From assembly GCA_049964795.1 (NCBI GenBank), contig JBMFWY010000001.1, positions 12,539 to 76,538 of the forward strand: 64,000 nucleotides of DNA, in the 5' to 3' direction. Position numbers and translations under genes: made by a program. Below are positions 10,983 through 28,702 of the stretch, in pieces. Position 1 is the stretch's first letter. The number at the start of each line of letters is the position of its first letter. The DNA is from Candidatus Micrarchaeia archaeon. GTDB lineage: Archaea; Micrarchaeota; Micrarchaeia; Micrarchaeales; Micrarchaeaceae. The notes under the pieces are model-generated. The model was not told the DNA's origin, did not search any database, and saw nothing but the letters and a program-made list of their open reading frames with translations.

Positions 10983-11091
10983 AGCCCCAGGAGGGAATTG
11001 AACCCTCGACCTCCTGTTTTCTTGCCTTCTTGGTTGAGTATTTTTCCAAAAAGTTTACGAGACAGGCGCTCTACCACTGAGCTACTGAGGC
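10983..11091 (-). tRNA. tRNA-Thr(CGT) with 37-nt intron (11019-11055) at canonical position 37/38; no encoded CCA
   Basis: Reverse strand folds as GCCTCAG/CTGGGGC acceptor, GCTC/GAGC D stem, CCTGT/ACAGG anticodon stem with CT-CGT-A, GAGGG-TTCAATT-CCCTC T arm; 72 nt after intron removal. Confidence 0.95.
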
Positions 11092-26653: not shown

Positions 26654-27726
26654 TGATTGCTTTTAACTTGAAGCCGATTCCAGTCGATGCTGCTGGAGGG
26701 TACTGCTATCAGGTTCCGACAGCCATGCAAGTTTGCTCTACGGCTTCGTAGGGCGGCGTACGGCTCAGTAACACGTGGCTAATCTACCGTAAAGAGAGGG
26801 ATACCCTTGGGAAACTGAGGTTAATACCTCATATGCTAGAGCATCTGGAAGGAGCTCTAACAAAAAAGGTTGCAAATTGCAGCATTACCGCTTTACGATG
26901 AGGCCGCGGCGGATCAGGCAGATGGCGGGGTAACGGCCCACCATACCAATAACCCGTAGGGGATGTGAGAGCATGAGCCCCGAGAAGGGCACTGAGACAA
27001 GGGCCCTAGCGCTACGGCGTGCAGCAGGCGCGCAAACTCCACAATGCGCGTAAGCGTGATGGGGGGAACCTGAGTGGCTGACTAACGTCAGCCTTTTGCC
27101 AAGTATAGCAAGCTTGGAGAATAAGTGCTGGGCAAGACCGGTGGCAGCCGCCACGGTAATACCGGCAGCACAAGTGGTATCCACGATTATTGGGCTTAAA
27201 GCGCCCGTAGCTGGCTGATGCCGTCTCATGTGAAATATTGGCGTTCAACGTCAATGCGAGCACGAGATACCCATCGGCTAGGGAGTGGGTTGGGTCAGGA
27301 GTACTTATGGGGGAGGGGCTAAATCCTATAATCCTATAAGGACTAACGGTGGCGAAGGCGCCTGACCAGAACACATCCGACAGTGAGGGACGAAGGCTAG
27401 GAGAACGAATCGGATCAGATACCCGAGTAGCCCTAGCAGTAAATCATGCAGACTCTGGTGTTGCATGCATCTCGAATGCATGCAGTACCGTAGCGTAAGC
27501 GTTAAGTCTGCCGCCTGGGGAGTACGGCCGCAAGGTTGAAACTTAAAACAATTGGCGGGGGAGCACACAAGGGGTGGATGCTGCGGTTTAATTGAACCCA
27601 ACGTCGGAAATATTACCAGAAGCGACGGCAGTGTGAAGGTCAGACTAAAGATCTTACCTGACAAGCCGAGAGGTAGTGCATGGCGATCGTCAGCTCGTGG
27701 TGTGAACTGTTCGGTTAAGTCCGGTA

Positions 27727-28249
27727 AGCTGTTGAGTGAGGCTATGACTAGAAAGCTAAAACTGGATCCAGATACCTGCTACATGCTTGGCATGTACAGC
27801 TGTAGCATGCGCTCTCCGATTTCCATAAGCACAGCCAAGAGGGAGCTGGTTGAAAAGTTTACCAAGATAGCGCTTGAATTAGGCGTAGAGCCTGAAAAGG
27901 TGCGCATCGAAAGCATGCAAAATGGCATGCAAAAGGTATTTTTTTACCACTCCAAGCTCGAAAAGCTGTTCAAGAATGCGCTCGAGCGCAGAAGCGTTAT
28001 ATTCTCGCGCAAGAATGCATGCGCGCTAAGCTATGTAGCTGGCGTATTTGACAGCAACGGCGGAAAAGACCGCTTTGGGCTCTTCATAAAAAAGCTTGAT
28101 CCTGCAAACGCGGTGATCATGGAGAACCTTGGCTTGCATGTGTGGGAATCAGGAGGCAGGCATTACATATTGAATGCAAAAGTTTTCGTTACGCTTATTG
28201 CTGGATACAGCGTAATGCTTTCGTACGAGCAACATTCTTCAGCCCGGTA
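27727..28249 (+). mobile_element. 523-nt archaeal BHB-type 16S intron at about E. coli position 1101/1102
   Basis: Interrupts conserved AAGTCCGGTA^ACGAGCGAGACC; CCGGTAA at both ends (27721, 28244); terminal stem GCTGttGAGTG/CATTCttCAGC. Confidence 0.9.
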
Positions 28250-28250
28250 A
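27744..28250 (+). CDS. Intron-encoded LAGLIDADG-family protein (168 aa), catalytically degenerate
   Basis: Motifs CYMLGMYSCS and SYVAGVFDSNG; the ORF-track start at 27552 lies in rRNA exon and is spurious. Confidence 0.75.
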   Translation: MTRKLKLDPDTCYMLGMYSCSMRSPISISTAKRELVEKFTKIALELGVEPEKVRIESMQNGMQKVFFYHSKLEKLFKNALERRSVIFSRKNACALSYVAGVFDSNGGKDRFGLFIKKLDPANAVIMENLGLHVWESGGRHYILNAKVFVTLIAGYSVMLSYEQHSSAR

Positions 28251-28702
28251 CGAGCGAGACCTTCGCTAACAGTTGCCACCAGCTTAGAGATAAGTTGAGC
28301 ACTCTGTTAGGACCGCCTCCGTTTAAGGAGGAGGAAGGAGAGGGCTACGATTCGTCAGTATGCTCTGAATCTTCTGGGCTACACGCGGCATACATAGGTT
28401 GGTACAATTGGATGCAATGCCGAGAGGCAAAGCCAATCCCCTAAAACCAACCGAGGTTCGGATTGAGGGCTGAAACTCGCCCTCATGAAGCTGGAATCCC
28501 TAGTAATCGCTTGTCACTATCGAGCGGTGAATATGTCCCCGCTCCTTGCACACACCGCCTGCCAGATCACCCAAATGAGGCTCTAACGAGGCAATAGCTT
28601 TGCTGTTTTCGAGTTAGAGTTTCGTAAGGAGGGTCAAGGCATAACAAGGCATCCGTAGGGGAACCTGCGGATAGATCACCTTTACAAAAAAATGTGTGCG
28701 TG

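What the first reader, a model, noticed from the sequence alone, without database searches (positions are those of the whole stretch)
27721..28250. 16S intron with a palindromic splice motif and a stop codon rebuilt by circularisation
Seen: both junctions read CCGG-TAA. The self-complementary CCGG forms the 4-bp central helix and each TAA forms a bulge or loop. Cleavage after the second bulge base (TA^A) splits the ORF stop codon at 28248-28250. The linear excised intron would lack a stop, while ligation to its first base (A27727) regenerates UAA. Known: archaeal rRNA introns circularise and some encode LAGLIDADG proteins; I recall a similar insertion reported for ARMAN, so the intron itself may not be new. 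Inference: complete translation would come from the circle or the unspliced precursor. The 7-nt direct repeat also resembles a target-site duplication.
Basis: partly seen in the sequence, partly recalled or inferred. Interest (0 to 1): 0.7.

Follow-up and report, generated by a model that had tools for sequence, protein, structure and literature searches.

The report
Spliced 16S rRNA intron in Micrarchaeota
This is an archaeal-type intron in the 16S rRNA gene of a tiny ARMAN-like archaeon, carrying a gene for a homing-endonuclease-like protein; its stop codon does straddle the splice site, but relatives show this is a local accident, not a designed feature.

Summary
The archaeal 16S gene (26677-28684) carries a 523-nt insertion bounded by CCGGTAA at 27721-27727 and 28244-28250. 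A 168-codon ORF (27744-28250) ends in the second TAA.

It is a relaxed bulge-helix-bulge (HBh') intron:
- Pairing: CCGG pairs with CCGG, the 5' UAA is a closed 3-nt bulge, and a long intron helix follows. In 23 same-site introns 91% of cells pair and 11 of 19 pairs covary.
- Missing part: no exon-exon helix closes the 3' bulge.
- Enzymes: the genome encodes an ARMAN-2-type epsilon2 splicing endonuclease and RtcB.
- RNA: contigs from 3 of 3 metatranscriptomes skip exactly these 523 nt. The one DNA run does not.

A cut after the second bulge base does split the stop codon. But only 4 of 23 same-site introns do this: 11 stop inside the intron and 8 stop 17 nt into exon 2. So the rebuilt stop looks incidental, and the TSD idea fails.

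The insertion is already in print for ARMAN-2, Mia14 and ARM-1.

New here: the protein has an I-DmoI-like fold without the canonical catalytic acids. It is a near-universal single-copy gene of the phylum, either inside the 16S gene or free-standing beside it.

The parts
26677..27726 (+). 16S rRNA exon 1, up to the second base of the 5' bulge
   Evidence: Rfam RF01959 match 26677-28684. The exon end follows from the cut rule.
27721..27724 (+). CCGG, exon strand of the 4-bp central helix H. In the mature rRNA it pairs instead with UCGG upstream.
   Evidence: Paired with 28244-28247 in the MFE and centroid folds and in cofolds of 7 of 7 sequences. All 92 cells (4 pairs x 23 sequences) are paired.
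27725..27727 (+). UAA, the 5' three-base bulge. Inferred cut between A27726 and A27727.
   Evidence: Unpaired between H and h'. UAA in 21 of 23 and UAU in 2 of 23 same-site introns.
27727..28249 (+). The intron, 523 nt under the cut-after-second-bulge-base rule
   Evidence: Insertion in the Rfam alignment. RNA contigs skip 27720 to 28244, 523 nt, with the joint movable over 7 bases.
27728..27738 (+). 5' strand of intron helix h' (GCUG, a UU mismatch, GAGUG)
   Evidence: Pairs with 28233-28243. 9 of the 11 pairs of this helix change on both sides across 23 introns.
27734..27741 (+). GAGUGAGG, a possible Shine-Dalgarno element lying inside h'
   Evidence: Inference. GUGA is complementary to the 16S 3' tail ...GAUCACCU at 28674-28681. 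GAGUGAU-like in most relatives.
27744..28250 (+). ORF of 168 codons plus TAA, encoding a LAGLIDADG-fold protein (P0001)
   Evidence: Translation. AlphaFold2 pLDDT 91.9. Best Foldseek matches I-DmoI and I-Tsp061I. dN/dS 0.11-0.37.
28233..28243 (+). 3' strand of h' (CAUUC, a UU mismatch, CAGC). It also encodes the last residues of the protein.
28244..28247 (+). CCGG, intron strand of central helix H. CGG is the last sense codon (Arg168).
   Evidence: CUGG in 2 of 23 relatives keeps the pairing through G-U.
28248..28250 (+). UAA, both the 3' 'bulge' and the ORF stop codon. Inferred cut between A28249 and A28250. Not closed by an exon-exon helix.
   Evidence: The third base is A in 23 of 23; the first two are UA in 9, AA in 11, AU in 1 and UU in 2.
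28250..28684 (+). 16S rRNA exon 2
   Evidence: Rfam match

Best explanation
The insertion is an archaeal endonuclease-dependent intron of the relaxed HBh' kind.

Structure (shown). It sits in the 16S rRNA gene of a Micrarchaeota (ARMAN-like, DPANN) genome, at E. coli 1101/1102. The boundary is ambiguous over 1095-1102, and this is probably the site published as '1093'. In the precursor, exon CCGG pairs with the CCGG at the intron's 3' end. The 5' UAA is a closed 3-nt bulge followed by a long intron helix. The 3' UAA lies in an open stretch.

Splicing (part shown, part inferred). The genome's epsilon2-type splicing endonuclease cuts after the second base of each UAA; these cut positions are inferred. 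RtcB joins the exons. Joining of the exons is seen in RNA contigs. RtcB presumably also circularises the intron, which was not observed.

The ORF (shown). It encodes a two-domain LAGLIDADG-fold protein under purifying selection.

The stop codon (shown). It straddles the 3' cut only in the window's own clade. Elsewhere in the same intron family it lies upstream or in exon 2, so the split and 'rebuilt' stop is a by-product of packing the ORF against the splice motif.

Template (inferred). The protein is most likely made from the nascent unspliced pre-rRNA, before the 3' strand of the helix that buries the ribosome-binding region has been transcribed.

The protein family (shown). It lacks the canonical catalytic acids. 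It is a near-universal single-copy gene in the phylum, either as this intron ORF or free-standing.
For: Host gene and insertion.

No room for a ribozyme: the ORF fills 504 of the 523 nt, and no group I or II family reached threshold in the window.

H, the 5' bulge and h':
- They appear in the MFE and centroid folds of 27690-28290 (z = -5.95).
- They appear in cofolds of 7 of 7 introns.
- Across 23 distinct same-site introns, 91.4% of 431 cells pair. Shuffles give 82.2% (0 of 500 reach the observed value) and slid controls give 33-40%.
- 11 of 19 pairs and 54 cells change on both sides.

Enzymes:
- A 389-aa ORF matches the ARMAN-2 epsilon2 endonuclease 4fz2_A over its whole length, E 1.3e-170.
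- RtcB is present at E 2.3e-171.
- The epsilon2 enzymes cleave relaxed motifs (PMC3239211 passages; PMC6379350 passages).

Cut position: for the ARMAN-2 enzyme the bulge is A13-U14-A15 and cleavage falls between 14 and 15 (PMC12397907 passages).

Splicing:
- Contigs in 3 of 3 RNA runs (X2, X3, X5) join 27720 to 28244. The 1 DNA run (X1) has no such contig and instead has a contig running through the intron.
- The best RNA contig (X3 record 19, 278 nt) differs from the window's exons at 3 bases.
- All 13 held loci at 92% identity or more over those 278 nt carry the intron in DNA. The nearest intron-less locus is 91.7%.

Stop position in 23 same-site introns: straddling the cut in 4; 10 to 41 nt upstream in 11; 17 nt into exon 2 in 8. 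Four of those 8 would be endless ORFs in a circle.

Protein:
- pLDDT 91.9. I-DmoI is the best match at TM 0.61-0.66, probability 1.00.
- dN/dS 0.11-0.37.
- The canonical acid positions hold S21 and N105 here, and are acidic in 0 of 60 and 3 of 60 distinct relatives. D103 is kept as D or E in 60 of 60.

Distribution:
- 230 of 301 phylum genomes match, 142 of 177 among high-quality ones, nearly all with one copy.
- One copy in the window's own genome.
- One copy in each of 4 other intron-bearing genomes.
Against: - No exon-exon helix closes the 3' bulge (0 of 7). In the MFE the 3' UAA pairs with exon UUA instead. The 3' cut position therefore rests on the symmetry of the enzyme, not on a predicted bulge.
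- The RNA evidence comes from assembled contigs of other samples, with no matched DNA. An intron-less strain 99% identical in its exons cannot be strictly excluded.
- No read ends, no circle junction and no intron cover were seen in RNA. Circularisation is assumed from the known pathway.
- Translation from the nascent precursor is an argument from structure and stop positions. It was not observed.
- The mapping of catalytic positions is by motif register and predicted helices, not by residue-level superposition.
- The 23 introns were not sampled at random. Part of the second batch was chosen for long open frames.
Confidence: 0.8

Rival explanations
1. One reading: the excised circle is the working mRNA, and the stop codon completed by ligation is a selected device that makes full translation depend on circularisation.
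For: The arithmetic holds for the window and for 3 close relatives (L001, L002, L023). Archaeal rRNA introns are known to circularise (established knowledge; recalled, not read here). RtcB is present. In the circle the UAA would sit in the 7-nt loop that closes h'.
Against: Only 4 of 23 same-site introns, all in one starred clade, have the split stop. Three introns with a UAA 3' bulge do not use it and stop 10 nt upstream (L051, L052, L057). Eight read on into exon 2, and 4 of those have no stop at all in the circle. The unspliced precursor supplies the same UAA. The SD-like element lies within the 11- to 15-bp h' helix, which persists in the circle. No circle junction was seen, though the intron had no RNA cover at all.
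Confidence: 0.1
2. The ORF is an active, selfish homing endonuclease. It cuts intron-less 16S rDNA at this site, and the free-standing copies beside 16S are the same selfish gene at another stage of its life cycle, as in intron-less or collaborative homing in phages.
For: The fold matches the archaeal intron endonucleases I-DmoI and I-Tsp061I. Intron-borne and free-standing copies are interleaved on the protein tree: at least 6 changes of state on 71 rows, 2 of them forced by starred branches. Free-standing copies lie next to the 16S gene in 13 of the 20 genome-contig loci scanned and in 12 of 40 fetched regions. That is where a free-standing endonuclease gene aimed at 16S would be expected. 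Purifying selection is also compatible with recurrent invasion.
Against: The canonical metal-binding acid is absent from both motifs: 0 of 60 at position 21 and 3 of 60 at position 105. The family is single-copy in 142 of 177 high-quality genomes of the phylum, far more even than the patchy spread usual for homing genes. In families other than the window's order, copies are not near 16S in 8 of 8 regions (L069-L076). The Pfam LAGLIDADG_3 score is below the cut-off (17.1 against 22.5 bits).
Confidence: 0.3
3. The insertion is an intervening sequence that is retained, or removed without ligation to leave a fragmented 16S rRNA.
For: A 2022 paper on ARM-1 states that whether its 522-bp insertion is spliced is uncertain (PMC8784108 passage).
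Against: RNA contigs join the exons exactly across 523 nt in 3 of 3 RNA runs, and the intron has no cover in them. The splice motif covaries. The endonuclease and the ligase are both present.
Confidence: 0.03
4. The 7-nt direct repeat is a target-site duplication left by a transposition-like insertion.
For: A perfect CCGGTAA repeat flanks the insertion in the window.
Against: The repeat is perfect in only 9 of 23 same-site introns. The 3' copies read CCGGAAA, CUGGAAA, CCGGAUA and CCGGUUA. The CCGG identity follows from pairing with a palindromic exon tetramer. No transposase, terminal inverted repeats or other element parts are present, since the ORF fills the insertion.
Confidence: 0.02

Closest known systems
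The 16S rRNA gene insertions already reported in Micrarchaeota: ARMAN-2 (protein UNLARM2_0643), Mia14 and ARM-1 (522 bp at 'E. coli 1093')
   Same: Same phylum, same gene and the same region of it. Almost the same length (522 against 523 nt). A single ORF fills the insertion. Sources: PMC8784108 passage and PMC5498576 passage.
   Different: Those papers call the product a hypothetical protein and leave its function and splicing open. Here the splice motif, its covariation, joined RNA, the fold of the protein and the spread of its family are worked out. Identity with UNLARM2_0643 is therefore not shown.
Crenarchaeal 16S and 23S rRNA introns with LAGLIDADG ORFs (I-DmoI of Desulfurococcus mobilis 23S, I-Tsp061I of Thermoproteus 16S, and Thermoproteales locus 1093)
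   Same: A bulge-helix-bulge type junction cut by the tRNA splicing endonuclease. The ORF has a monomeric two-domain LAGLIDADG fold. A locus numbered 1093 is listed for Pyrobaculum, Thermoproteus and Desulfurococcales (PMC4496867 passages).
   Different: The protein is shorter (168 aa against 172-204 residues in the matched chains). It has no sequence-level match to any solved structure beyond one stray hit at E 0.67. It lacks the canonical acids. The motif is relaxed (HBh'). The host enzyme is the epsilon2 type. Homologues also occur as free-standing single-copy genes.
Relaxed (HBh'/hBH) tRNA introns of ARMAN-2 cut by the epsilon2 endonuclease
   Same: The same enzyme type is encoded here (E 1.3e-170 to 4fz2_A). 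One bulge is not closed by a helix.
   Different: The substrate here is pre-rRNA with a 523-nt protein-coding intron, not a 13- to 25-nt tRNA intron (PMC3239211 passages).
Host-type protein genes housed in rRNA introns, such as rps3 in the fungal mitochondrial LSU group I intron (recalled, not read here)
   Same: A conserved single-copy protein gene lives inside an rRNA intron and elsewhere occurs free-standing.
   Different: A different intron class and a different protein. A host function for the Micrarchaeota protein is only inferred.

Membership tests
Archaeal bulge-helix-bulge intron | Interrupts an otherwise continuous, conserved rRNA or tRNA sequence | tested here: met
   524 bases stand against 1 model position in RF01959. 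14 held relatives have the uninterrupted site.
Archaeal bulge-helix-bulge intron | A 4-bp central helix, with a 3-nt bulge closed by an intron helix h' | tested here: met
   H is paired in all 92 cells (4 pairs x 23 sequences). 92.1% of h' cells are paired, and 9 of its 11 pairs change on both sides.
Archaeal bulge-helix-bulge intron (strict hBHBh' form) | The second 3-nt bulge is closed by an exon-exon helix h | tested here: not met
   No run of pairs next to the bulge in the canonical register in 7 of 7 sequences. It is therefore filed as the relaxed HBh' form.
Archaeal bulge-helix-bulge intron | Splicing endonuclease and RtcB ligase are encoded by the host | tested here: met
   EndA of 389 aa matches 4fz2_A at E 1.3e-170. 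RtcB at E 2.3e-171.
Archaeal bulge-helix-bulge intron | The exons are joined exactly in RNA | tested here: met
   A 523-nt skip in contigs of 3 of 3 RNA runs and 0 of 1 DNA run. The best contig is 98.9% identical to the window's exons. Caveat: these are contigs from other samples, without matched DNA.
Archaeal bulge-helix-bulge intron | The excised intron is circular | tested here: inconclusive
   No back-joint and no intron cover in the RNA contigs. Contigs drop rare forms.
Archaeal bulge-helix-bulge intron | Cuts fall after the second base of each bulge | not testable with these tools
   The joint is movable over 7 bases. Relatives with AUA, AAA or UUA bulges allow a cut after the second or the third base only. 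The rule itself is taken from PMC12397907.
LAGLIDADG homing endonuclease | A two-domain alpha-beta-beta-alpha-beta-beta-alpha fold | tested here: met
   pLDDT 91.9. I-DmoI at TM 0.61-0.66 and I-Tsp061I at TM 0.56, both probability 1.00.
LAGLIDADG homing endonuclease | Pfam family score above the curated cut-off | tested here: not met
   LAGLIDADG_3 scores 17.1 bits against a cut-off of 22.5. 5 of 25 family members reach E 0.01 or better.
LAGLIDADG homing endonuclease | An acidic metal-binding residue at the end of each LAGLIDADG helix | tested here: not met
   Positions 21 and 105 are S and N here. They are acidic in 0 of 60 and 3 of 60 distinct relatives. The register is set by motif and predicted helices, so this is an inference.
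LAGLIDADG homing endonuclease | Cleaves the intron-less allele | not testable with these tools
   Needs an enzyme assay.
Group I or group II self-splicing intron | A ribozyme core | tested here: not met
   No intron family reached threshold in the window. Only 19 of the 523 nt lie outside the ORF.
Transposable element with a target-site duplication | Identical flanking repeats wherever the element occurs | tested here: not met
   A perfect 7-nt repeat in 9 of 23 same-site introns.

The most novel reading that the evidence does not exclude
The intron ORF is not a selfish nuclease. It is a domesticated LAGLIDADG-fold protein that the whole phylum keeps as one copy and ties to 16S transcription, either inside the gene as this intron or just downstream of it. 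It is translated from the nascent pre-16S rRNA before the splice helix can form, so translation and splicing are ordered in time. Where the stop sits (inside the intron, across the cut, or in exon 2) sets when the ribosome leaves and the endonuclease can act. In the four lineages with endless circle ORFs, any circle translation would be rolling-circle.
Probability: 0.2. Interest if true: 0.7.

Novelty: new member of a known kind. Interest (0 to 1): 0.4.

Why it matters
The 2022 ARM-1 paper left open whether the Micrarchaeota 16S insertion is spliced and what its protein is (PMC8784108). Three things here bear on that:
- The covarying splice motif, the matching epsilon2 enzyme and the joined RNA contigs answer the splicing question at the level computation allows.
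- The fold answers what kind of protein it is.
- The comparative series of stop positions shows that the attractive 'stop rebuilt by circularisation' idea is a local accident.

The same series points to a sharper test. Lineages whose ORF ends in exon 2 can reveal, from one C-terminal peptide, whether an rRNA precursor is translated.

The spread of the protein raises the possibility of a host function. It is near-universal, single-copy, without the canonical catalytic acids, and sits inside or beside the 16S gene.

Practically, the intron lies in a conserved stretch of 16S and lengthens amplicons by about 0.5 kb in part of this phylum.

Tried and rejected
Searches and checks that led nowhere:
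- ARAGORN found no tRNA in the window, although Rfam finds one with an intron. I tried to use that tRNA to calibrate the cut position. Runs of A at both junctions make it as ambiguous as the 16S case, so I took the rule from the ARMAN-2 structure paper instead.
- A profile search of the family against PDB sequences gave only a stray hit at E 0.67. The link to I-DmoI is therefore by fold only.
- The frequency of CCGGTAA in the window is not above chance. I dropped frequency as an argument.
- No 23S rRNA gene was found in the assembly, so 23S introns could not be compared.
- RNA contigs gave no cover of the intron and no back-joint. This says nothing either way about circles.
- The group I/II intron, fragmented-rRNA and TSD readings were considered and rejected (see the rival explanations).
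- Literature searches for a stop codon completed by circularisation of an archaeal intron found nothing relevant (listings and abstracts only). PMC4238349 was searched for terms and had none. Subscription papers of the 1980s and 1990s on D. mobilis and Pyrobaculum introns are not in the library, so the idea may be in print there. Supplements were closed, and they may hold the ARM-1 insertion structure (its SI Fig. S12).
- I could not obtain DNA for P0004 to P0006. Their reading into exon 2 was first inferred from the C-terminal PGNERDLR, then seen directly in other loci.
Full report
WHAT IS THERE

The window holds a complete archaeal 16S rRNA gene at 26677-28684 on the + strand (Rfam RF01959, 1313 bits).

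In the model alignment, 524 bases stand where the model has one position, between ...GGUUAAG and CCGGUAACGAGCG. That is a 523-nt insertion.

The sequence reads CCGGTAA at 27721-27727 and again at 28244-28250. These are the only two copies in the window. The count is not above chance; their placement at the two boundaries is the point.

An ORF begins at ATG 27744 and ends at TAA 28248-28250, 168 codons.

By alignment to an E. coli 16S gene, the repeated block corresponds to E. coli 1096-1102 and the inferred cut to 1101/1102. Published work numbers what is probably the same site '1093'. I did not check that equivalence on the published sequences.

WHOSE GENOME

The assembly has 724,721 bases in 34 contigs and is 91.6% complete. 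Of 22 genome loci that encode a relative of the ORF, 20 carry Micrarchaeota, Micrarchaeia or Micrarchaeaceae in their record titles.

THE SPLICE MOTIF

Folding 27690-28290 gives four elements in both the MFE and the centroid structures (z = -5.95):
- CCGG 27721-27724 paired with CCGG 28244-28247.
- UAA 27725-27727 as a three-base bulge.
- GCUG 27728-27731 paired with CAGC 28240-28243.
- After a U-U/U-U mismatch, GAGUG paired with CAUUC.

This is the geometry of the archaeal bulge-helix-bulge motif: on each strand, the central helix is followed by the bulge.

I collected 23 distinct introns at this same site: the window, 4 genome loci, 2 metagenome loci and 16 regions fetched from genome handles. 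On their alignment:
- 91.4% of 431 cells form standard pairs. Shuffles give 82.2% (0 of 500 reach the observed value) and slid controls give 33-40%.
- 11 of 19 pairs, and 54 cells, change on both sides.
- The central helix is CCGG:CCGG in 21 introns and CCGG:CUGG (a G-U pair) in 2.

That last point shows that pairing, not repeat identity, is what is kept.

The second bulge is not canonical. In the register where an exon-exon helix should close the 3' UAA, there is no run of pairs in any of 7 sequences tested. In the minimum-energy fold the 3' UAA pairs with exon UUA instead. The motif is therefore the relaxed HBh' form.

THE ENZYMES

The genome encodes a 389-aa splicing endonuclease. It matches the solved ARMAN-2 epsilon2 enzyme (4fz2_A, 395 aa) from end to end at E 1.3e-170.

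This three-unit type cleaves relaxed motifs (PMC3239211 passages; PMC6379350 passages). In its complex with a BHB RNA the bulge is A13-U14-A15, and the bond between 14 and 15 is cut (PMC12397907 passages). That is a cut after the second bulge base.

RtcB is present at E 2.3e-171.

Relatives whose 3' bulge reads AUA, AAA or UUA restore the uninterrupted UAA only if both cuts fall after the second or the third base. With the enzyme's rule, the intron is A27727-A28249.

IS IT SPLICED

Laid on 27300-28684, contigs of 3 of 3 metatranscriptome runs (X2, X3, X5) join 27720 to 28244, skipping 523 nt, with the joint movable over 7 bases. They have no cover inside the intron.

The one DNA run (X1) has no such joint. 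It has a 628-nt contig running through the intron.

The best RNA contig (X3 record 19, 278 nt) differs from the window's exons at 3 bases. Among held loci, the 13 that are 92% or more identical over those 278 nt all carry the intron in DNA. The nearest intron-less locus is 91.7%.

This supports exact excision and exon ligation. The limits are that these are assembled contigs, from other samples, without matched DNA. No circle junction was seen, which with zero intron cover says nothing.

THE STOP CODON

Given the cut, the linear intron ends ...CGG-UA and has no stop. The circle and the unspliced precursor both read UAA.

Across the 23 same-site introns, however, the stop lies in three places:
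- It straddles the cut in only 4: the window, L001, L002 and L023, which form one starred clade.
- It lies 10 or 11 nt upstream in 9, 30 nt upstream in 1 and 41 nt upstream in 1.
- It lies 17 nt into exon 2 in 8, giving tails such as ...PGNERDLR.

That exon-encoded tail was first noticed in database proteins P0004 and P0005.

Five introns with a UAA 3' bulge do not use it as the stop: L051, L052, L057, L063 and L067.

Of the 8 that read into exon 2, 4 would have an endless frame in a circle (L053, L055, L059, L060). The other 4 meet a stop soon after the junction.

So the split stop is one of several outcomes of an ORF packed against the splice motif. It is not a conserved device.

The 7-nt repeat is perfect in only 9 of 23, which removes the target-site-duplication idea.

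WHICH RNA IS TRANSLATED (INFERENCE)

The SD-like GAGUGA(G/U) lies in the 5' strand of h', and the AUG lies a few bases after it. That helix survives excision.

In the nascent precursor, this region is free until the 3' strand is transcribed about 490 nt later. For the 8 introns that end in exon 2, only the precursor supplies the annotated stop.

I therefore favour translation from the nascent unspliced pre-rRNA. This was not observed.

THE PROTEIN

Pfam gives only a sub-threshold LAGLIDADG_3 match: 17.1 bits against a cut-off of 22.5. Five of 25 relatives reach E 0.01 or better.

An AlphaFold2 model built on a 25-sequence alignment has pLDDT 91.9 and pTM 0.88. Its best PDB matches are I-DmoI (TM 0.61-0.66, probability 1.00) and the archaeal 16S-intron enzyme I-Tsp061I. 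The fold is a monomeric two-domain LAGLIDADG.

By motif register and the predicted helices, the two canonical metal-binding positions are S21 and N105. Among 60 distinct family members, these columns are acidic in 0 and 3 members. D103 (D in 57, E in 3) and G106 (60 of 60) are kept. A canonical nuclease site is therefore probably absent. This rests on register, not on superposition.

The ORF is under purifying selection: pairwise dN/dS is 0.11-0.37 among four close introns.

THE FAMILY

The window's genome has one copy. Four other intron-bearing genomes and one genome with a free-standing copy have one each.

A profile search of 301 genomes of the phylum finds a match in 230, and in 142 of 177 high-quality ones. 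The copy is single in nearly all. This tally includes the unpublished genomes G034 and G203.

Of 20 genome loci scanned for rRNA:
- 5 have the gene inside 16S at this site.
- 13 have it free-standing on the same strand, about 0.1 to 2 kb downstream of the 16S gene.
- 1 has it free-standing beside a 16S gene on the opposite strand.
- 1 has no 16S in the locus.

Of 40 further regions:
- 17 are in 16S at this site.
- 12 are downstream of 16S.
- 11 have no 16S within about 2.6 kb. These include all 8 regions from other families of the class (L069-L076).

These 40 partly overlap the earlier loci, and part of them was chosen for long open frames. They are not a random sample.

On a quick tree of 71 rows (60 different), the intron and free-standing states need at least 6 changes, 2 of them forced by starred branches. 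For that tree I left out the two endonuclease loci, the copy of the window's own region, and three exact duplicates.

Two readings remain open:
- A selfish endonuclease gene that moves between a free-standing place beside its target and the intron.
- A domesticated protein tied to 16S expression.

The missing acids and the even, single-copy spread favour the second. The interleaved tree and the position beside 16S fit the first.

WHAT IS KNOWN

Introns in the 16S genes of ARMAN-2 and Mia14 are mentioned in PMC5498576 (passage).

PMC8784108 describes a 522-bp insertion at 'E. coli 1093' in ARM-1. It encodes a hypothetical protein 25% similar to the ARMAN-2 insertion protein, and the paper states that its function and splicing are uncertain (passage).

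Locus 1093 is one of 13 intron loci in Thermoproteales and relatives (PMC4496867 passages).

The intron as such is therefore known. This one is a new member.
- the motif and its covariation
- the RNA evidence
- the fold
- the spread of stop positions
- the phylum-wide family

I found nothing in print about a stop completed by circularisation of an archaeal intron. The older subscription literature and all supplements were out of reach.

VERDICT

This is an ordinary archaeal rRNA intron in mechanism. The split stop is real but incidental. There is a moderately interesting side result about the protein family. Interest 0.4.

Noticed in passing
window 10983-11091 (- strand): A tRNA (anticodon CGU by my reading) with a 37-nt intron at the canonical 37/38 position. 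Rfam finds it at 61.7 bits, but ARAGORN in its default mode finds no tRNA in the whole window. Its central helix has a C-A mismatch.
   Followed up: partly
whole assembly G000: No archaeal 23S rRNA match in the 725-kb, 91.6%-complete assembly. The 16S gene stands alone, with a protein gene on the opposite strand directly downstream.
   Followed up: no
L005, L007-L011, L013, L014, L016-L018, L020, L021 and L037-L061: In intron-less relatives the homologous LAGLIDADG-fold gene stands free, usually on the same strand 0.1 to 2 kb downstream of the 16S gene and preceded by AT-rich sequence. Whether it is co-transcribed with 16S is unknown.
   Followed up: partly
L017/L044 and L037 (about window position 27541); L041, L052, L060, L064 (about window position 28519): Relatives carry further insertions of about 0.7 to 0.85 kb at two other 16S places. 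One is near E. coli 908-919, a known intron region. The other is near E. coli 1360, which is not among the 13 loci listed in PMC4496867. L068 has several interruptions.
   Followed up: no
L053, L055, L059, L060 (same-site introns): Intron length is a multiple of three and the ORF has no in-frame stop within the intron. A circular form would therefore carry an endless reading frame.
   Followed up: partly
L004 and L014 record titles: Two loci with Micrarchaeota-type 16S and the family gene sit in bins titled Marsarchaeota and Acidoferrum. These are probably binning or labelling errors.
   Followed up: no
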